Below, in pieces: positions 1-29,005 of a DNA stretch of 64,000 bases. The stretch is from IMG/VR virus record IMGVR_UViG_3300045988_122072, positions 96,001 through 160,000 of that record; one strand, 5' to 3'. Source of the DNA: a virus. Below the pieces are notes generated by a model. That model saw nothing but the letters and a program-made list of their open reading frames with translations, searched no databases and had not been told where the DNA came from. Each line of letters starts with the position of its first letter. Positions within the stretch are counted from its first letter, which is position 1. A program made the position numbers and the translations under genes.

Positions 1-386
1 CTACTGCGGTAAATGGTCATATGAAGCAAGAGGATATGCCTAAGAATGTACTGATTATTTCAGACATGGAGTTTGACTCCTGTGCAACTTGTGGTGGTAA
101 TGGGTATGGTCTTAATAGACCTAGTGCAAGACTTTTTGAGACAATTAAGAAGCGTTTTGAGGATGCTGGGTATCAAATGCCTAGATTAGTCTTCTGGAAT
201 GTAAATTCTCGCACTGGAACTATTCCTGTAAAGGAAAATGACCTTGGTGTTGCTCTTGTTAGTGGATTCTCCACTAATGTTTGCAAGATGGTCATGAGTG
301 GTAAGACCGATCCTTATGAGTGCCTTGTTGAGACGCTTATGAGTGAGAGATATGATGCGGTGGAAGCCGCATTGAAGAACTTTTAA
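1..386 (+). CDS. DUF2828 / vWA-like protein, C-terminal fragment (5' end lies left of the window)
   Basis: Frame is open from nt 3 to TAA 384-386. Motifs VLIISDMEFD and RLVFWNVNS...GVALVSGFS match my memory of the C-terminal vWA-like part of the DUF2828 family. Not searched. Confidence 0.5.
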   Translation, partial: TAVNGHMKQEDMPKNVLIISDMEFDSCATCGGNGYGLNRPSARLFETIKKRFEDAGYQMPRLVFWNVNSRTGTIPVKENDLGVALVSGFSTNVCKMVMSGKTDPYECLVETLMSERYDAVEAALKNF

Positions 387-434
387 GGAGTTAAGTATGG
401 TGCTGGGCATCACCTTAAAGCTGCCCTAAGATAT

Positions 435-762
435 GCAGGTGTGTCGGAATTGGTATACGAAACAGACTCCGCTCATAGGTAAAAGCTATGAAGGTTGGGT
501 CACTATTTTGGAAACGAAATAGTTAGTAAACTCCCTAATTCTTGGAACGCTAAGTCTTAATAAGATACGCCAATCAAGAGCTAAATGAACTAAGTTCTAA
601 ATGTGTAGAGACTATAGAGGAGTTACCTAAACTTACATAAGTAAGCATGGTTATAAGATAGTCCAGACCACAAACACCAAATGGTGGCCATGAAAATGGT
701 AGGGGTAAGTAAAATCTGTTGCCCGTAAGGGATTGAGGGATCGTGGCCCTTCACCTGCACCA
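435..762 (+). tRNA. trnL: tRNA-Leu(UAA) gene interrupted in the anticodon loop by a group I intron (exons 435-468 and 710-762)
   Basis: Acceptor GCAGGTG (435-441) / CACCTGC (752-758), then A and CCA. Leu-type D arm TCG-GAATTGGTATA-CGA. Anticodon stem ACAGA (462-466) / TCTGT (715-719). Joined loop CT|TAAAA gives anticodon TAA. Long variable arm GCCC-GTAA-GGG. T arm GAGGG-ATCGTGG-CCCTT. Confidence 0.75.
469..709 (+). ncRNA. Group I intron (tRNA-type, IC3-like), 241 nt, no ORF
   Basis: The 5' exon ends in U468 and the intron ends in G709. GTGTAGAGACTA (603-614) equals the J6/7-P7 segment of the Azoarcus tRNA-Ile intron as I remember it. P7 candidate is GACTAT (610-615) / ATAGTC (658-663). Element order resembles cyanobacterial tRNA-Leu introns. 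I could not find a convincing P1, so the splice site is +-1 nt. Confidence 0.65.
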
Positions 763-1200: not shown

Positions 1201-1284
1201 TATGATAGTAAGTTGCTTAAACCGTTCTAGCAAACCCTATAAAATGGCAGAAACGGTGACGGTTGGAGAGACAACAAAATATAT

Positions 1285-1377
1285 GCCCTCATAGTTTAAT
1301 GGTAAAACACCCGGCCTATACCCGGCATTAAGGCTCCAGATTAGAGCACGTTCTCCGTTCGAGTCGGAGTGGGGGTA
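1285..1377 (+). tRNA. Atypical 93-nt tRNA-like gene, identity unresolved
   Basis: Acceptor GCCCTCA / TGGGGGT (G1.U72 and one more G.U). D arm GTTT-AATGGTA-AAAC. Canonical T arm CTCCG-TTCGAGT-CGGAG. Between them lie two hairpins, CCGG-CCTATAC-CCGG and GCTC-CAGATTA-GAGC, and neither has U33. No CCA is encoded. Confidence 0.4.
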
Positions 1378-1774
1378 GCTACTCAAGTCTTACAACCTCC
1401 ATGTGGTGAGTAGTGGGTAATGCTAATAGTAAGATATATTTATCATTCCCAATAATGACTTAGATATCATGATATCAACATATCAAATTGGGTGTCAGCC
1501 GTCAGGCACTTTAACGGCGTCATATCCTCTTTTAGTGTAAAGGTTGCACACCTCCAGTCAAGGAGCAGGAACGGTTCGATTCCGTACAGAGGACGGTTTG
1601 ACACAGCCGGAGTGTTATCTCTGGCATACGGATTAGCGTATGCAAAGCATTTGTCTTCGGATGGTAAAAATGCGAGAGAAGTCATCCCCTTGAACTTCTC
1701 ACTACATACATCCCTAGTGGTTGTTATGCTGAGGCCGATGATGGGGCGGTCGTTTATAATACCCCATTCAATAT

Positions 1775-22203: not shown

Positions 22204-22805
22204 ATACAAGAATTAATTATATTTCAGATTCTTGGACAAGAATAAAAAATCATTGTAGAACAACTGTCAATAAGAAATTCACAGAAAAAGAGCCAACTGA
22301 TAAGTTTAAGGAAGAACTTTTAATTAGCGAACATTCTCCTATTAGATGTCTTGAGGTTGATTGGACATGGGAGAATATTCCTTATTGGGTAAGTACGGAA
22401 CTAAGCCGCCATAAGCATGAAAAGTTTATTAGTTCACAGCGTGATGACAGAAATAATAATGAAATTCCTCGCGGAAAGAAACCACAAGATTCTCCCGTCA
22501 CTCATGACGCATATGCAAATGCCCAGAATCTAATTGACATGATGCGTAAAAGACTTTGTTTTATGGCAACCAAAGAAGCTAGAGAAGCGGCAGAAAATTT
22601 GAAATATGAACTACATAATTACGAACCACAACTAGCAAATGTGCTTATGCCGAATTGCTTATATAGAGCAGGATGTCCAGAGTTTGAAACTTGCGGATTT
22701 TGGAAGAAGTTCAAGGAAAAACATCCAGATGTAGATATGACCGATATTAAAGAAAGATATCGAGCATATAATGAAGATTTTTATAAGAAATTTAATGAGG
22801 AGTGA
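22200..22805 (+). CDS. thyX: ThyX-like flavin-dependent thymidylate synthase
   Basis: EHSPIRCLEVDW...ELSRHKHEKFISSQRDDR resembles the ThyX HxSxxEH ... RHRxxSxxxxSxR signature. TTG start overlaps the upstream stop. Confidence 0.55.
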   Translation: MNTRINYISDSWTRIKNHCRTTVNKKFTEKEPTDKFKEELLISEHSPIRCLEVDWTWENIPYWVSTELSRHKHEKFISSQRDDRNNNEIPRGKKPQDSPVTHDAYANAQNLIDMMRKRLCFMATKEAREAAENLKYELHNYEPQLANVLMPNCLYRAGCPEFETCGFWKKFKEKHPDVDMTDIKERYRAYNEDFYKKFNEE

Positions 22806-23608
22806 TGTCTGTGACTGTAGAACAATGGCTTGGTAAAGATAATAAAATTGGTATTGATATTTGGCACAAGAAATATCAGTACAACAATGAAAATTTTGAC
22901 GAATGGTTAGATAGAGTAAGCGCTGGAGATAAAGAGCTAAAACAACTTATCATTGAAAAGAAATTTTTAATGGGTGGTAGAACACTTGCTAATCGTGGTA
23001 CAAATAGTACTGGTAGCCTGTTTAATTGTTACTCCAGAGGCTATGTTGAAGATGACTATTCTGATATTATGGATGCTGCAAAAGACATTGGCGTAACATT
23101 TAAGGCTCAGGGAGGACAGGGCATTTCTCTTACTAAGCTTCGTCCAAAGGGCACACCAATCAAGAAAGAATATTTTTCTGATGGTATTGTACCATTTATG
23201 AAGATTTTTAATGAAGTTACCGCAGGGACTTCTCAGGGTGGGGCTCGAAAGGGAGCGCTTATGCTTTCTGTCGATGCTAGGCACAAGGAAGCAGAAACAT
23301 TCATTAAGATTAAGTCAAAGGACGGAGAGATTGAAAAGGCGAATCTATCTCTTGAAATCGATGATGAATTTATGAGAGCCATTGAGAAGTATTATGATAC
23401 TGGAGAAGTTGTCGTGCTGCATGAAAAGCGTAATTATGCTGGTCATGAAGTAGAATATGATGTAACGCCAATTAACATTTTCAATATGCTTGTAGATAAT
23501 TGTTATGATTGGGCAGATCCTGCATGTTTGTTTGTTAATAGGTTTAGAAATTATAATCTAATGCAGTATGATGATGAATATGAAATTGAAACTTGCAATC
23601 CTTGTGGT
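22805..23608 (+). CDS. nrdJ: Class II (B12-dependent) ribonucleotide reductase, exon 1
   Basis: ATG 22805 follows GAGGAG. Exon 1 ends ...EIETCNPCG. The ORF-track tail WLTCRK* is intron read-through. Confidence 0.8.
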
Positions 23609-24053
23609 TGGTTAACTTGCCGCAAGTAAAACATCCCGTAAAATCGGTGAAGCCTACACCGAAAGGCATGGTAATACCGAGTTCCCACTGCATCACAGGG
23701 GAATGTAACGCATAGGCGATGAGCGGATATGAGAGCAATAATTCGCCCACGAGTACGGGACATTGGCACATAACGGAGTGATAATATTGATTATATATAA
23801 AGTAATAAACATTATTAATGGCAAGGTGTACAAATGAATATTATCAATGAAAAATATGATCTTAAAGACATTAGAAGCCTATATCCTTGCTTTAATGTTA
23901 AAAATTCAAAAGATCTTGCAAACTGTTTAAAAGATTATGTGCTAAATGAAAATATATGCTGAACTGGTCTGAACTGACAGACGTATCGGGTTATACCCGT
24001 ATGAGAGAAATCTCCAGAAGCTATGGATAAAAAGCCATAGCGATAACACACAG
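23609..24053 (+). ncRNA. Group I intron in nrdJ (445 nt, no intact endonuclease ORF)
   Basis: Exon ends in U23608 and the intron ends in G24053. P1 pairs exon CUUGUGGU (23601-23608) with intron GCCGCAAG (23619-23626), with a U.G wobble at the splice site. 3' hairpin GCTATGG-ATAAAAAG-CCATAGC. Splicing restores NPCG|EQPL in frame. Confidence 0.75.
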
Positions 24054-25526
24054 GAGCAACCACTTCCAAAGCATGGAGCATGTTGCTTGTCATCCCTTAA
24101 CCTATCTGAGTTTGTTGTAAACCCATATACTCCAACTGCGCATTTGAACACAGAAGATTTCCTTCATGCTATTGATGTTGGAATTAGAACTCTTGATAAG
24201 CTAATTGACGAAAACTACAATAGGCACCCGCTACAGCAGCAAAGAGATATGTCATATAATTATAGAAACATTGGTCTCGGCATTTTTGGATATGCAACTG
24301 CTCTAATGAAGCTTGGACTTAAGTATGGTTCAAATGAAGCAATCGAATTTACTGATGATGTATTTTCACTTTTATTCAAACGAGCAGTATTCGCAAGCAA
24401 TAATCTTGCAAAAGAATTAGGTACATATCCGAAGTATAAGGAGTGCGTATTTGATAGCGACATTATTAAGAATCATTTTACACCAGATGAAATTGATGGT
24501 CTAAAAGAACACGGTCTTAGAAACTGCTCTTTAATTTCAATTGCTCCGAATGGGTCTCTTGCTACTTTACTTGGAGAATCTGGTGGATGTGAGCCTGAGT
24601 TTGCACTTAAGTATACACGTAGAACTGTCGGTATGACAGACGGCGAAGATACTTATTATGATGTTTACTGTAAAGCAGCAAAAGAATATATGGATGCAAA
24701 CCATACAGATATCCTTCCAGACTATTTTGTTGGCTCTGCAGATATTCCTTGGCAAAATAGAGTGCTAACACAGGCGGCTATGCAAAACCATGTAGATACT
24801 GCAATTAGTTCTACAGTAAATATGCCTAATTCTGCTACAAAAGAAGATGTAGCTCATATGTATTTACTTGCGTGGTCAACTGGCTGTAAGGGCATTACGA
24901 TGTTTAGAGATGGATGTAAACGCCTTGGCATTCTGACAACAGACAAATCTGAAAGTGGCACAGACGAAAATGGAATTAAGCCTTATGAACTTCCACGTGG
25001 CGCTATTATTGAATGTTCTAGTGACCTAGTTGGTAAAAAGCGCAAGCTTACTACGGGGTGTGGTAGTTTACATGTTCTTGCATTTTTTGACCCATATGAT
25101 GGCTCACTACAAGAAGCATATTTCAATAAGGGGTCAACTGGAGGATGCGCCAACTTTATGACTGGTCTTAGCAGAACAGTTTCACTATTGTGCAGAGCAG
25201 GTGTTGATATTATGACCATTAAAGATCAACTAGATTCTACTGGCGCTTGTCCGAGCTATGCCGCAAGAACTGCAACTAGACATGATACATCTAAGGGGTC
25301 ATGTTGTCCAATGGCAATTGGTAATGCATTAGTTGAAATGTATAATGAGATGCAACAAGATATTGGTGATAATGAAGAGGAAATTAATACTGATACAGTT
25401 GTTCATCAGATAACGAAGCCTGAACAAATTAATTCAAACGATAGATGCCCAGAATGTGGGTCTATTCTTGAACACGTTGGCGGCTGTGATTTGTGTAAAA
25501 ATTGTGGATTTACTCACTGTGGGTAA
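24054..25526 (+). CDS. nrdJ: Class II ribonucleotide reductase, exon 2
   Basis: Frame is open from 24054 and reads EQPLPKHGACCLSSLNLSEF, completing the NPCGEQPL...C.L.S.NL active-site block. C-terminal CPECG...CDLCKNCG zinc ribbon. Confidence 0.8.
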   Translation, partial: EQPLPKHGACCLSSLNLSEFVVNPYTPTAHLNTEDFLHAIDVGIRTLDKLIDENYNRHPLQQQRDMSYNYRNIGLGIFGYATALMKLGLKYGSNEAIEFTDDVFSLLFKRAVFASNNLAKELGTYPKYKECVFDSDIIKNHFTPDEIDGLKEHGLRNCSLISIAPNGSLATLLGESGGCEPEFALKYTRRTVGMTDGEDTYYDVYCKAAKEYMDANHTDILPDYFVGSADIPWQNRVLTQAAMQNHVDTAISSTVNMPNSATKEDVAHMYLLAWSTGCKGITMFRDGCKRLGILTTDKSESGTDENGIKPYELPRGAIIECSSDLVGKKRKLTTGCGSLHVLAFFDPYDGSLQEAYFNKGSTGGCANFMTGLSRTVSLLCRAGVDIMTIKDQLDSTGACPSYAARTATRHDTSKGSCCPMAIGNALVEMYNEMQQDIGDNEEEINTDTVVHQITKPEQINSNDRCPECGSILEHVGGCDLCKNCGFTHCG

Positions 25527-27846: not shown

Positions 27847-27862
27847 TAAAGGAGTGGTTATT

Positions 27863-29005
27863 GTGGCAAAGAAGAGAATGAACGGAGAAGGATCTTGGAC
27901 ACAGCGCGATAATGGTAAATGGAAGTTATCTGTATCATACAAGGGGTTTGGCAGGAAATATTTCTATGGCACCAAGCAAGAGTGCTTAAACAAAAAGCAA
28001 GAATTTGAAGCGTTATTGTCAACAGGTATTGTTGGAGAGAAAGACGTTTTATTTAAGGATTTTGCTCATTCATGGCTTAAAAATATTAAACAGCCATCGA
28101 TTAAACCAGCCTCATATGATAGACTTGCAGACATAACAGAAAATTTTTTAATTAAACAGTTAGGGGATTTGGCGTTGCAACAAATAGATGATAGTTTAAT
28201 TCAAACCATGATAATAAATAAGTTTAAAACAGACGGGTATTCACGTTCAACAATTCGCAAAGCTTATGGAACATTGGGGCAAATTTTTGATTATGCTATA
28301 GCCAGAGGGAAAGTAAACAAAAACCCAATAGACAATGTGGTGATGCCAAAACGAGAACTATTTGAAGAAAAAGAGCAAAGATTCTTTTCAGAAGAGGAAA
28401 GAGCTAGGTTGGTAAACGCCTGCTATATGAAATATAGTAACGGGGAAAGAAGATTTAAATATGGTGCATTTTATGTTTTCTTAATGTATACTGGGCTTAG
28501 ACTTGGCGAAGGACTCGCACTTAAGTGGAAATATATTGACTTTGAAAAAAGGACAGTCTATGTATCAAGAACCATAGTATATGTAAAAGACCGAACAAAA
28601 AATGATGGAAGCAAAATTCTTATTGATCAATCAACTACAAAGGGAGGAAGAGGGAGAACCGTATTTTTATCAGACATGGCAATAGAGGCTCTTAACGATC
28701 TGAAAGAAGAAAAAGGATATGATCCAGAACAGTACATTATACGCTCAAGATATAATACAATGGTTCGCCCTGCTGATGCGTATAAGGTATTCCAGCGTAT
28801 ATTAAAACAAGCAGACATAGAACAGTGTGGGCCACACTCATTGAGACACACGTTCGTAAGTGCGCTTATTGACCAAGGTGTTCCAATAACAATGATTTCG
28901 AAAATAGTTGGGCACGCAAAAATTGATGTTACAATGACAGTATATTCTCATTTGTTGCAAGAAACACAAAATGCATCTATGTCTGTTATAAAAAATCTTA
29001 AGTAA
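27863..29005 (+). CDS. int: Tyrosine recombinase (phage integrase)
   Basis: N-terminal NGEGSW. C-terminal catalytic pattern GLRLGE...HSLRHTF...GH...Y (R..HxxR..H..Y). The start (GTG 27863, GTG 27854 or ATG 27878) is uncertain. Confidence 0.9.
   Translation: MAKKRMNGEGSWTQRDNGKWKLSVSYKGFGRKYFYGTKQECLNKKQEFEALLSTGIVGEKDVLFKDFAHSWLKNIKQPSIKPASYDRLADITENFLIKQLGDLALQQIDDSLIQTMIINKFKTDGYSRSTIRKAYGTLGQIFDYAIARGKVNKNPIDNVVMPKRELFEEKEQRFFSEEERARLVNACYMKYSNGERRFKYGAFYVFLMYTGLRLGEGLALKWKYIDFEKRTVYVSRTIVYVKDRTKNDGSKILIDQSTTKGGRGRTVFLSDMAIEALNDLKEEKGYDPEQYIIRSRYNTMVRPADAYKVFQRILKQADIEQCGPHSLRHTFVSALIDQGVPITMISKIVGHAKIDVTMTVYSHLLQETQNASMSVIKNLK

What the first reader, a model, noticed from the sequence alone, without database searches (positions are those of the whole stretch)
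435..762. Phage-encoded tRNA-Leu(UAA) carrying a group I intron in its anticodon loop
Two tRNA halves lie 241 nt apart. Together they give a complete type II Leu cloverleaf of 87 nt with an encoded CCA. The anticodon loop is CT|TAAAA.

The intervening sequence looks like the IC3 introns of bacterial tRNA genes:
- GTGTAGAGACTA (603-614).
- A P7 pairing GACTAT / ATAGTC.
- A terminal G709.

tRNA-Leu(UAA) introns are classic in cyanobacteria and plastids. I am not aware of one described in a phage tRNA gene of a Firmicutes phage. The inferred insertion point (after U33) also differs from the cyanobacterial one (after U34). I could not find a convincing P1, so the exact splice site needs experimental support.
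Basis: partly seen in the sequence, partly recalled or inferred. Interest (0 to 1): 0.75.

Follow-up and report, generated by a model that had tools for sequence, protein, structure and literature searches.

The report
Self-splicing intron in phage tRNA-Leu gene
A leucine tRNA gene of a human-gut phage is split in its anticodon loop by a compact group I (self-splicing type) intron; such introns are classic in bacterial and chloroplast tRNA genes, but I found no description of one in a phage tRNA gene.

Summary

- **Exons.** Joining 435-468 to 710-762 gives an 87-nt type II tRNA-Leu(UAA) with an encoded CCA.
- **Intron.** The 241 nt between them (469-709) match the Rfam group I model end to end (41.9 bits, E 2.9e-9, below the curated cut-off of 50). 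They also match a profile built only from bacterial tRNA introns (E 9.5e-15).
- **Structure.** The predicted helices P2-P9 covary with those of bacterial IC3 introns.
- **P1.**
- **Junction.** Eleven related viral contigs carry the same tRNA gene without the intron. They are continuous exactly at the predicted junction.
- **Site.** The intron sits after U33. The classical site is after U34. A bacterial "Leu.2Ug" class with the U33 site is already in a 2020 preprint.
- **Relatives.** Larger related introns occupy the classical site in tRNA-Leu genes of other gut-phage contigs, including the Lak-C1 megaphage. One also sits in the DNA primase gene of a crAss-like phage.
- **Literature.** A 2014 review states that all known phage group I introns lie in protein-coding genes. 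My searches found no later exception.

Verdict: a new member of a known kind. Splicing itself is not shown.

The parts
435..468 (+). 5' exon of tRNA-Leu(UAA), tRNA positions 1-33. Acceptor 5' strand 435-441, D arm 444-459, anticodon-stem 5' strand 462-466, C32 = 467, U33 = 468 (the -1 nucleotide of the intron).
   Evidence: Joining it to the 3' exon gives an ARAGORN tRNA-Leu(taa) of 87 nt. ARAGORN -i -ps80 gives the same boundary. Intron-less alleles are continuous here.
469..709 (+). Group I intron, IC3-like, 241 nt, with no ORF.
   Evidence: Rfam RF00028 matches 464-687 at 41.9 bits, E 2.9e-9, model 1-253. nhmmer with a bacterial tRNA-intron profile hits 532-708, E 9.5e-15. Helices covary with bacterial introns. 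Fold z-score is -2.94.
465..501 (+). P1 hairpin. G465-C501, A466-U500, C467-G499, U468·G498 (the splice-site wobble) and C469-G497. An extension hairpin spans 471-495. The internal guide sequence is 495-501. The proposed P10 is U710·G497, A711-U496, A712-U495.
   Evidence: All pairs are standard. The guide core GGGUC is the same as in the bacterial seed Eba21.Leu.2Ug (GGACUC/GGGUCC). Relatives at the neighbouring site carry UGAGU pairing ACUU|A instead. P10 is read from the sequence only.
502..523 (+). P2, 9 bp, capped by a GAAA tetraloop (511-514).
   Evidence: Pairs listed. Variants A502G and A517G keep pairing as G·U. All 9 P2 pairs (two helix rows in the tool's table) show two-sided changes against bacterial introns.
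529..534 (+). P3 5' strand (AACUCC), which pairs with 619-624 (GGAGUU).
   Evidence: All 6 pairs show compensatory changes in alignment A1. Phage relatives have AUCUCC/GGAGAU, a double change.
539..580 (+). P4 (539-545 with 574-580) enclosing P5 (549-550 with 569-570) and hairpin 554-566. P5 carries a variant of the 11-nt tetraloop receptor: GCUAAG...UACGC.
   Evidence: 94% of P4 cells and 100% of P5 cells are paired, with compensatory changes in 4 of 7 and 1 of 2 pairs. The receptor reading is by eye against the Azoarcus seed CCUAAG...UAUGG.
581..603 (+). P6 (C581-G603) with inner hairpin GAAC/GUUC (587-597).
   Evidence: Pairs. The C581-G603 column pair holds in 15 of 15 sequences, 2 of them compensatory.
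603..615 (+). J6/7 and the P7 5' strand: GUGUAGAGACUAU. P7 is 610-615 paired with 658-663.
   Evidence: Columns G141, A143-T149 and G197-C200 are invariant across 15 sequences. P7 cells are 90% paired.
625..651 (+). P8 (625-627 with 649-651; inner stem 632-636 with 641-645). It carries a receptor-like motif CCUAAA.C / G.CAUGG.
   Evidence: Variants A625G and A644G keep pairing; U642C breaks one pair.
658..663 (+). P7 3' strand (AUAGUC).
667..709 (+). P9 domain. P9 is 667-671 with 702-706, containing one A670·G703 mismatch. P9a is 675-678 with 683-686. P9b is 687-691 with 696-700, capped by GAAA (692-695). The domain ends with the terminal AAG, where ωG = 709.
   Evidence: The layout matches the bacterial seeds (ACCAC aaa - hairpin - GAAA hairpin - GUGGU aag). 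P9b cells are 98% paired, with 4 of 5 pairs compensatory.
710..762 (+). 3' exon of tRNA-Leu(UAA). Anticodon U34 A35 A36 = 710-712. Anticodon-stem 3' strand 715-719. Variable arm 720-734. T arm 735-751 with the unusual T loop AUCGUGG. Acceptor 3' strand 752-758. A73 = 759. CCA = 760-762.
   Evidence: It is 85% identical to the annotated tRNA-Leu of Pseudomonas phage 201phi2-1.
399..426 (+). Conserved pseudoknot-like leader 8 nt upstream of the tRNA. A 4-bp hairpin (GGUG/CACC) has loop CUGGGCAU, an A-rich linker follows, and then UGCCC pairs with the loop. Function unknown. It travels with the tRNA gene whether or not the intron is present.
   Evidence: The stem covaries: GGUG/CACC, AGUG/CACU, AGAG/CUCU. 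A similar element lies at 763-790.

Best explanation
Positions 435-762 are a functional phage gene for tRNA-Leu(UAA). A compact, ORF-less IC3-type group I intron interrupts it between U33 and U34.

Inferred mechanism, following the established group I pathway:

1. In the precursor, the last four exon nucleotides (G465-U468) and C469 pair with the guide GGGUC (497-501) to form P1, with the U468·G498 wobble marking the 5' splice site.
2. The core folds (P3-P8 and P4-P6). It is braced by two GAAA tetraloops (L2, L9b) docking into receptor-like motifs in P8 and P5.
3. A free guanosine bound at P7 attacks after U468.
4. ωG709 then takes the G site, and the 3'-OH of U33 attacks after G709. Alignment is helped by P10 (U710-A712 with G497-U495) and by the anticodon stem.
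5. The product is the 87-nt tRNA with its CCA.

What is shown and what is inferred:

- Shown here: the exons, the boundaries, membership of the RNA family, and presence/absence of the intron among related phages.
- Inferred: catalysis, and use of the tRNA. UUA is the phage's commonest Leu codon.

The intron is most likely a selfish passenger that is neutral because it splices. It has relatives elsewhere in gut phages.
For: - **Exons.** The joined exons give a canonical tRNA-Leu(taa), and ARAGORN -i finds the same intron i(35,241).
- **Family matches.** The Rfam group I model matches full length with E 2.9e-9. A profile of 12 bacterial tRNA introns gives E 9.5e-15.
- **Covariation.** The window-derived helices were projected on a MAFFT alignment with 11 bacterial IC3 introns. 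87% of cells pair, against 30-47% when partners are slid. 29 of 43 pairs have two-sided changes. The covariation score is 0.491 against 0.158 in shuffles (0 of 500 reach it).
- **Splice-site rules.** U at -1 in a U·G wobble and G at ω are both met.
- **Intron-less alleles.** Eleven viral contigs (L075-L085) have the same tRNA gene without the intron. It is 78/87 identical, has the same unusual T loop, shows two compensatory D-stem pairs, and is continuous at ACAGACT|TAAAATCTGT. Where the fetched DNA reaches far enough (L076, L081, L082, L084), two downstream window genes recur at 72-81% nucleotide identity, so these are related phages.
- **Intron-bearing variants.** They are conserved across 4 distinct sequences. 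Six of 7 substitutions inside helices keep pairing.
- **Guide sequence tracks the site.** It is GGGUC for CU|U here and UGAGU for CUU|A in relatives.
- **Codon use.** UUA makes up 34% of Leu codons in 22 long ORFs.
Against: - There are no RNA data. Splicing and aminoacylation are untested.
- The Rfam score (41.9) is below the curated cut-off (50), and the gene is not reported at gathering threshold.
- P1 has only 5 bp next to the splice site and must compete with the anticodon stem.
- P5 has 2 bp, and both tetraloop receptors are variants of the canonical 11-nt motif.
- P9 has one A·G mismatch, and one variant (U642C) breaks a P8 pair.
- The T loop (A54, U58) is non-canonical, so tRNA function is not assured.
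- The tested structure was derived from one of the aligned sequences, which inflates the 'cells paired' comparison with slid controls. The compensatory counts are less affected.
Confidence: 0.85

Rival explanations
1. Dead intron or pseudogene. A group I intron inserted into the tRNA gene and has since lost activity. No mature tRNA is made, and the locus is decaying.
For: The Rfam score is below the gathering cut-off. The receptors are variants, P5 is short and P9 has a mismatch. The T loop is unusual. Most related contigs (11 of 13 in IMG/VR) lack the intron, so it is dispensable.
Against: All 28 columns that are invariant in the bacterial alignment are kept in the window sequence. Four distinct intron-bearing variants differ at 11 sites, and 6 of the 7 helix sites preserve pairing. 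The exons remain a perfect cloverleaf. The unusual T loop is shared with the intron-less allele, so it is a lineage trait and not decay.
Confidence: 0.07
2. Splicing that depends on a protein helper. The RNA is a true group I intron but needs a phage or host cofactor, so it would not self-splice alone under physiological conditions.
For: The peripheral contacts are weakened (variant receptors, 2-bp P5). The genome encodes RNA-handling proteins close by: an RNA-binding protein (DUF7788, 21-386) and an Rnl1-like RNA ligase (8338-9444).
Against: Compact IC3 tRNA introns of this architecture (Azoarcus, Anabaena) self-splice efficiently; this rests on established knowledge and was not tested here. 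No maturase-like ORF lies in or next to the intron.
Confidence: 0.1
3. Adaptive intron. The intron is kept because it benefits the phage. It might make the tRNA gene immune to a tRNA-Leu-gene-specific homing endonuclease of competing phages, or it might delay or gate tRNA-Leu supply during infection.
For: One relative (L063, 1100 nt) encodes an HNH endonuclease in its P1 loop. An intron-occupied site cannot be cut by an enzyme that recognises the uninterrupted site (general principle of homing). Presence/absence polymorphism exists in one phage lineage.
Against: Nothing here shows benefit. The pattern is equally what a neutral selfish element gives. The window intron has no ORF.
Confidence: 0.15
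4. Chance juxtaposition of two unrelated tRNA-like fragments with an AT-rich spacer.
For: None beyond the fact that default tRNA finders miss the gene.
Against: E-values of 2.9e-9 and 9.5e-15 for the spacer. The halves are exactly complementary. Intron-less alleles exist.
Confidence: 0.01

Closest known systems
Bacterial 'Leu.2Ug' group I introns (Williams 2020, bioRxiv 10.1101/2020.01.27.920355; seed Eba21.Leu.2Ug)
   Same: Same tRNA identity (Leu), same site (after loop position 2 = U33), U at -1 and G at ω. The P1 core is the same (GGACU|C with GGGUCC there; GACU|C with GGGUC here). The IC3-type core is shared.
   Different: Those were found in bacterial genome assemblies; this one lies in a phage tRNA array. 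The seed is 366 nt with large P6 and P8 insertions, whereas this intron is 241 nt. The J7/3-P3 sequence differs (GACGG... there, UAGAGG... here). The exact 20-nt core of the window was absent, as an intron, from one representative genome for each of 185,579 bacterial and archaeal species.
Cyanobacterial and plastid tRNA-Leu(UAA) intron (classical 'Leu.3Ug', subgroup IC3)
   Same: Same isoacceptor and same intron class. Both have L2 and L9 GAAA tetraloops, the GUGUAGAGACUA / AUAGUCC core, and an ACCAC...GUGGU-AAG 3' end.
   Different: The insertion is one nucleotide upstream (U33|U34, not U34|A35), with a correspondingly different guide sequence. The setting is a phage genome.
Azoarcus tRNA-Ile(CAU) intron (IC3, solved structures)
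   Same: Compact size, no ORF, and the same helices P2-P9. Both have two GAAA tetraloops with receptor motifs in P5 and P8 (seed Aol6.Ile2.5Ug; alignment).
   Different: The tRNA and site differ (after position 36). Azoarcus has canonical 11-nt receptors, whereas here they are variants: GC-UAAG/UAC-GC in P5, and A·C replacing G·U in P8. P1 here carries an extra hairpin.
   Same: The P6'-J6/7-P7-J7/3-P3' sequence is identical over at least 20 nt. The J2/3-P3-J3/4 and J8/7-P7'-P9 blocks are shared, as are the GAAA L2 and the GGUAAG 3' end.
   Different: They sit at the classical CUU|AAAA site with guide UGAGU. They are 443-1100 nt long, with insertions in P4, P5, P6, P8 and P9. One carries an HNH gene. 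Their hosts are probably Bacteroidota (Lak: Prevotella; IAS virus: Crassvirales).
Classical phage group I introns (T4 td/nrdB/nrdD, Twort, SPO1, Bastille)
   Same: Self-splicing group I ribozymes carried by phage genomes.
   Different: All are in protein-coding genes. [quoted passage not shown] That they belong to other structural subgroups and often carry endonuclease genes is from my own knowledge and was not tested here.
'Enigmatic' tRNA introns of Lak megaphages (Devoto et al. 2019, PMC6784885)
   Same: Intervening sequences in phage tRNA genes. That paper states that introns in phage tRNAs had not been reported before.
   Different: The example shown is 93 nt. The reported ones are in tRNA-Tyr, Phe, Gly and Thr, were predicted with eukaryotic tRNAscan settings, and were not classed as group I. 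Neither tRNA-Leu nor 'group I' appears in the intron text or table that I could search.

Membership tests
Group I intron (Rfam RF00028) | Significant match of sequence plus structure to the family covariance model | tested here: met
   464-687 matches model positions 1-253 of 253 at 41.9 bits, E 2.9e-9. This is below Rfam's curated gathering score of 50, so the whole-window gathering scan does not list it. Williams 2020 accepted hits of 20 bits or more inside split tRNA calls.
Group I intron (Rfam RF00028) | U at -1 forming a U·G wobble in P1 with an internal guide sequence | tested here: met
   U468·G498 is flanked by G465-C501, A466-U500, C467-G499 and C469-G497.
Group I intron (Rfam RF00028) | Guanosine (ωG) as the last intron nucleotide | tested here: met
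   G709 directly precedes U34 of the 3' exon. No other register gives both U-1/Gω and a 7-nt anticodon loop.
Group I intron (Rfam RF00028) | Conserved core helices P3-P8 and P4-P6, including the P3/P7 pseudoknot, supported by covariation | tested here: met
   87% of cells are paired, 29 of 43 pairs are compensatory, and 0 of 500 shuffles reach the score. P3 is 6 of 6 compensatory, and P7 is 90% paired with 4 invariant pairs.
Group I intron (Rfam RF00028) | Guanosine-dependent self-splicing | not testable with these tools
   This needs in vitro transcription and a splicing assay, or RNA sequencing.
IC3 introns of bacterial tRNA anticodon loops (incl. Leu.2Ug) | Lies in the anticodon loop, and its removal restores a canonical tRNA | tested here: met
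   Intron-less alleles are continuous at the junction.
IC3 introns of bacterial tRNA anticodon loops (incl. Leu.2Ug) | Sequence-profile similarity to curated bacterial tRNA-intron seeds | tested here: met
   nhmmer with a profile of 12 seeds from gpI.sto hits 532-708 with E 9.5e-15. 28 columns are invariant in the joint alignment.
IC3 introns of bacterial tRNA anticodon loops (incl. Leu.2Ug) | Compact architecture: no P5abc, GAAA tetraloops on P2 and P9, receptors in P8 and P5 | tested here: met
   GAAA at 511-514 and 692-695. Receptor-like motifs at 549-554/566-570 and 626-631/646-650, both variants of the 11-nt motif. This reading is by eye against the seeds, so docking itself is inferred.
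Classical cyanobacterial/plastid tRNA-Leu(UAA) intron (Leu.3Ug) | Insertion between U34 and A35 | tested here: not met
   The insertion is between U33 and U34 (CU|UAAAA). I therefore do not file it as a member of this class, although it works in the same way.
Type II tRNA-Leu | Cloverleaf with long variable arm, A73, G18G19 and UAA anticodon | tested here: met
   ARAGORN structure of the spliced product. The cloverleaf and length are kept in the intron-less allele.
Type II tRNA-Leu | Canonical T loop (T54-Ψ55-C56...A58) | tested here: inconclusive
   The T loop is AUCGUGG, with A54 and U58 swapped. The same loop occurs in all 13 contigs carrying this tRNA, with or without the intron. That argues for constraint, but function is untested.
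Phage group I introns in protein-coding genes | Interrupts an ORF of a conserved phage protein | tested here: not met
   It lies in a tRNA gene within a tRNA array at 435-2842.

The most novel reading that the evidence does not exclude
This intron belongs to a family of ribozyme elements that is actively mobile among human-gut phages. The family would move by guide-sequence-directed reverse splicing or endonuclease homing. Its targets would be the tRNA-Leu(UAA) anticodon loop, at two adjacent registers, and look-alike sites in protein genes such as the IAS-virus primase site AGACUU|AAAAU. It would also cross between phages of different host phyla (Firmicutes-type here; Crassvirales and Lak on Bacteroidota). 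On this reading phages are vehicles for the patchy spread of the 'ancient' tRNA-Leu intron, and the intron may protect the phage tRNA gene from competing endonucleases.
Probability: 0.25. Interest if true: 0.75.

Novelty: new member of a known kind. Interest (0 to 1): 0.6.

Why it matters
[quoted passage not shown] Phage group I introns have been described as confined to protein-coding genes (2014 review).

This locus shows that a phage tRNA gene can carry such an intron. Its relatives in 30 other fetched loci and in the Lak-C1 megaphage show the same. One phage lineage has both intron-bearing and intron-less alleles. Related introns occupy adjacent registers of the same anticodon loop and a matching site in a primase gene.

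That gives a concrete, testable route for horizontal movement of tRNA introns.

There is also a practical warning. Standard tRNA finders miss these genes, so phage tRNA repertoires and codon-supply analyses are incomplete.

The mechanism itself is ordinary group I chemistry. The value lies in distribution and evolution, not in new biochemistry.

Tried and rejected
- **Default tools miss the gene.** ARAGORN with defaults, and with -i at the default threshold, does not call it; it needs -ps80. The Rfam gathering scan lists only five ordinary tRNAs.
- **Bacterial genomes.** A scan for the 20-nt core returned only two chance matches inside coding sequence (Sulfurimonas, Fibrobacter MAGs). No bacterial source was identified.
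- **Deposited phage genomes.** None holds the window-type intron at blastn sensitivity. Only the 3' exon matched, to tRNA-Leu of phage 201phi2-1.
- **Invalid energy value.** The free energy I computed for my hand-drawn structure is meaningless, because P3 and P7 cross and were written with one bracket type. I did not use it.
- **Full covariance model.** I did not try to build one: by the tool's stated timings a model of about 240 positions would exceed the time limit. I used a sequence profile and pair counting instead.
- **Split ribonucleotide reductase gene.** An Rfam E-value scan of the gap found nothing, although the bacterial-intron profile gives a weak hit there. This is unresolved.
- **crAss-like genomes of Yutin 2021.** I tested whether the contigs with the larger relatives are among them. 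The contig names do not occur in the supplements.
- **Flanking pseudoknot motif.** I considered that it (399-426, 763-790) might be a pistol, HDV-like or preQ1-type element. No Rfam match with E up to 10 falls on 399-426 or 763-790, and the hand comparison does not fit. It remains unexplained.
- **Literature.** Ten searches found no report of a group I intron in a phage tRNA gene. Subscription-only papers are not covered.
Full report
**1. What is in the sequence**

Positions 435-468 and 710-762 are two tRNA halves 241 nt apart.

- Joined, they give what ARAGORN calls tRNA-Leu(taa): 87 nt, a perfect 7-bp acceptor stem, a long variable arm, A73, encoded CCA, and the anticodon loop CUUAAAA.
- ARAGORN and the Rfam gathering scan miss the interrupted gene.
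- ARAGORN with its intron option and a relaxed threshold returns tRNA-Leu [435,762] (taa) i(35,241).
- GTGTAGAGACTA (603-614), GACTAT/ATAGTC (610-615 with 658-663) and G709 are as stated.

**2. The intervening sequence is a group I intron**

- An E-value scan of 380-1060 against Rfam gives Intron_gpI at 464-687: 41.9 bits, E 2.9e-9, covering all 253 model positions. This is below Rfam's curated score of 50. It is well above the 20 bits used in the published pipeline for tRNA introns.
- As an independent test I built a sequence profile from 12 bacterial tRNA-intron seeds, taken from the supplementary alignment of Williams 2020. In the whole window it hits 532-708 with E 9.5e-15.
- The MFE z-score of the intron is -2.94, which is only modest support.

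**3. Structure**

By hand, guided by the Rfam alignment and the seeds' consensus, every helix can be drawn with standard pairs.

- P1: 465-469 with 497-501, including the U468·G498 wobble, plus an extension hairpin at 471-495.
- P2: 502-523, with a GAAA loop.
- P3: 529-534 with 619-624.
- P4: 539-545 with 574-580.
- P5: 549-550 with 569-570.
- P6: 581 with 603, with an inner hairpin.
- P7: 610-615 with 658-663.
- P8: 625-651.
- P9 domain: 667-706 with two hairpins, the second capped by GAAA, followed by AAG with ωG709.

Its guide core GGGUC is the same as in the bacterial seed Eba21.Leu.2Ug (GGACUC/GGGUCC). A 3-bp P10 (U710-A712 with G497-U495) can be drawn, but it is inferred only. P5 and P8 carry variants of the 11-nt tetraloop receptor seen in the Azoarcus seed. 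Tetraloop docking is inferred.

**4. Covariation**

I aligned the four distinct window-type sequences with 11 bacterial seeds using MAFFT, without structural guidance. I then projected the window-derived helices P2-P9 onto the alignment, including the P3/P7 pseudoknot.

| Measure | Observed | Control |
|---|---|---|
| Cells forming standard pairs | 87% | 30-47% with partners slid by 1-3 columns |
| Pairs with changes on both sides | 29 of 43 | 19.9 in shuffles |
| Covariation score | 0.491 | 0.158 in shuffles; 0 of 500 reach it |

- P3 is compensatory at 6 of 6 pairs, P4 at 4 of 7, and P9b at 4 of 5.
- Caveat: the structure came from one of the aligned sequences, which favours the 'cells paired' figure. 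The compensatory changes sit in the independent bacterial rows.

**5. Boundaries confirmed by intron-less alleles**

- A scan of viral contigs for the unusual T arm of the 3' exon found 13 contigs.
- Two of them (L004, L010) carry the intron.
- Eleven (L075-L085) carry the same gene uninterrupted: GCAGGTGTGCTGG…AACAGACT-TAAAATCTGTC…CACCTGCACCA. It is 87 nt and 78/87 identical to the predicted spliced product. It has two compensatory D-stem pairs and the same AUCGUGG T loop.
- Where the fetched DNA reaches far enough (L076, L081, L082, L084), two downstream window genes recur at 72-81% nucleotide identity, so these are related phages.
- This fixes the exon junction in silico. It also shows presence/absence polymorphism within one lineage.

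**6. Relatives**

- The 20-nt core occurs in 14 IMG/VR contigs and 28 metagenome contigs. Where the source is named it is human gut, and contigs reach 188 kb.
- After removing the candidate intron, 31 loci (the window included) give an ARAGORN tRNA-Leu(taa).
- Six are window-type: 241 nt, CU|UAAAA, four distinct sequences. They differ at 11 sites, and 6 of the 7 sites inside helices keep pairing.
- Twenty-five are larger relatives: 443-1100 nt, at the classical CUU|AAAA site, on five different anticodon stems.
- The guide sequence follows the site. It is UGAGU pairing ACUU|A in the larger relatives, and GGGUC pairing GACU|C in the window type.
- P3 differs by a double change: AACUCC/GGAGUU versus AUCUCC/GGAGAU.
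- One relative (L063) encodes an HNH endonuclease in its P1 loop.
- In deposited genomes the larger type occurs in the split DNA primase gene of crAss-like IAS virus and of phage cr116_1, and in Lak megaphages.
- In IAS virus the primase site reads AGACTT|AAAATTT. That is the same nine nucleotides around the splice site as in the anticodon loop.
- In Lak-C1 the intron sits in a tRNA-Leu(UAA) gene that also has a second group-I-like intron in its D loop.
- The exact core was not found as an intron in one representative genome for each of 185,579 bacterial and archaeal species.

**7. The genome**

- The window has about 36% G+C. It encodes a tail protein, a 3215-aa protein with a minor-tail domain, an endolysin, an NAD-dependent DNA ligase, an Rnl1-like RNA ligase, a split ribonucleotide reductase and an integrase.
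- No close relative exists among deposited phages.
- Relatives of the endolysin, the tail protein and phrog_12787 are mainly in phages of Firmicutes: Streptococcus, Lactococcus, Blautia, Oscillospiraceae, Listeria. Identity is 28-42%. A Firmicutes host is therefore plausible but not shown.
- UUA is the most used Leu codon, at 34%.

**8. Comparison with what is known**

- Williams 2020 lists four classical bacterial types (Leu.3Ug, Arg.5Ug, fMet.2Ug, Ile2.5Ug) and 17 new ones. A Leu.2Ug seed is among them. The U33 site is therefore not new.
- Hausner, Hafez and Edgell 2014 state that all phage introns observed to that date are in protein-coding genes, despite many phage tRNA genes.
- Devoto 2019 reported short 'enigmatic' introns in Lak tRNAs (Tyr, Phe, Gly, Thr) and said that phage tRNA introns had not been reported before. 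They did not describe a group I intron or tRNA-Leu.
- Ten full-text searches found no report of a group I intron in a phage tRNA gene. The library omits most subscription journals, so this absence is provisional.

**9. Verdict**

This is a real, well-supported IC3-type group I intron in a phage tRNA-Leu(UAA) gene, inserted after U33.

- It is a new member of a known kind.
- The chemistry is expected to be ordinary.
- The interest lies in the genomic setting, the intron-plus/intron-minus polymorphism, and a phage-borne family that uses two registers of one anticodon loop and a mimic site in a protein gene.
- Splicing and tRNA function remain to be shown experimentally.

Noticed in passing
window 399-426 and 763-790; also L004, L010, L069, L075, L076, L083: A compact pseudoknot-like RNA motif recurs. 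It has a 4-bp hairpin with loop CUNGGCAN, an A-rich linker (UUAAAG, GAAAAC or AAAAAC), and then U(G/A)(C/U)C(C/A) pairing with the loop. Both stems covary (GGUG/CACC, AGUG/CACU, AGAG/CUCU, AUUC/GAAU; loop-strand pairs G-C to U-A). Most copies end 7-8 nt before a tRNA or tRNA-like 5' end (...ATAT|G). The copies at 763-790 and their counterparts in L010 and L069 instead follow the CCA of tRNA-Leu. No Rfam match. Function unknown.
   Followed up: partly
window 1284-1434: A 96-nt 'tRNA-Ile(tat)' with a 22-nt insert in the variable region (1284-1379) is followed directly by a sub-threshold match to the F. prausnitzii HDV-like ribozyme (1378-1434, 33.5 bits versus cut-off 44, E 9e-4). A 7-bp P1 (GCUACUC/GAGUAGU) is visible by eye. 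This resembles the 'theta' ribozymes described next to gut-phage tRNAs.
   Followed up: partly
window 22802-25526: The ribonucleotide reductase large subunit is split into two ORFs (22802-23629 and 24087-25526) with a 457-nt gap. The bacterial tRNA-intron profile gives a weak hit at 23634-23681 (E 9e-6) that looks like P3-P5 of a group I intron, but the Rfam E-value scan of the gap found nothing.
   Followed up: partly
L073 (Prevotella phage Lak-C1, MK250029.1 331136-333834): The tRNA-Leu(UAA) gene appears to have two introns. One is a 308-nt group-I-like intron in the D loop (after ...GGAATTGGT, ending ...TTTTTG; profile E 4e-11). The other is the larger relative in the anticodon loop. Removing both gives an 87-nt tRNA-Leu. 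A group I intron in a tRNA D loop would be unusual.
   Followed up: partly
L074 (IAS virus NC_049978.1, locus 1497-2100) and L007, L014/L070: The same intron family interrupts the DNA primase gene of crAss-like phages. The site there, AGACTT|AAAATTT, copies the tRNA-Leu anticodon-loop target. This suggests movement directed by the guide sequence between a tRNA gene and a protein gene.
   Followed up: partly
L063, intron 11456-12555 of the reverse-complemented locus: An 1100-nt member of the family in tRNA-Leu(UAA) carries a 142-aa HNH endonuclease ORF in the P1 loop (Pfam HNH_3, E 1.5e-7).
   Followed up: yes
L002, L003, L011, L013, L046, L067, L071 (P9 region of the intron): A tRNA-like domain of about 105 nt is nested inside the intron. 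It has a 7-bp acceptor-like stem UUAAAUA/UAUUUAA, a D-arm-like GGCGGAAUUGGUAUACGGC and a GGGUUCGAAUCCC T arm. The 'anticodon' region is oversized and contains CUCUAAA. ARAGORN calls it (cta) in L046 only at a relaxed threshold, with a poor fold. Whether it is a nested suppressor tRNA is open.
   Followed up: partly
window 1525-1594 and about 1777-1860: There are further tRNA-like sequences that default tools miss. One is a 70-nt 'tRNA-Asp(gtc)' called only at -ps80. The other, seen by eye, is a type II Leu(CAA)-like sequence (GCCGCTG...TTGGTCTCAAAAACCAA...CAGCGGTACCA) with a 6-nt T loop.
   Followed up: no
window 21-386 and 8338-9444: RNA-handling genes flank the tRNA array. Immediately upstream is the C-terminal part of a DUF7788 protein (phrog_850, 'RNA-binding protein'). 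Downstream is an Rnl1-like RNA ligase (phrog_562). This may indicate tRNA repair.
   Followed up: no
window 27854-29005: A tyrosine integrase gene is present, so the phage may be temperate.
   Followed up: no
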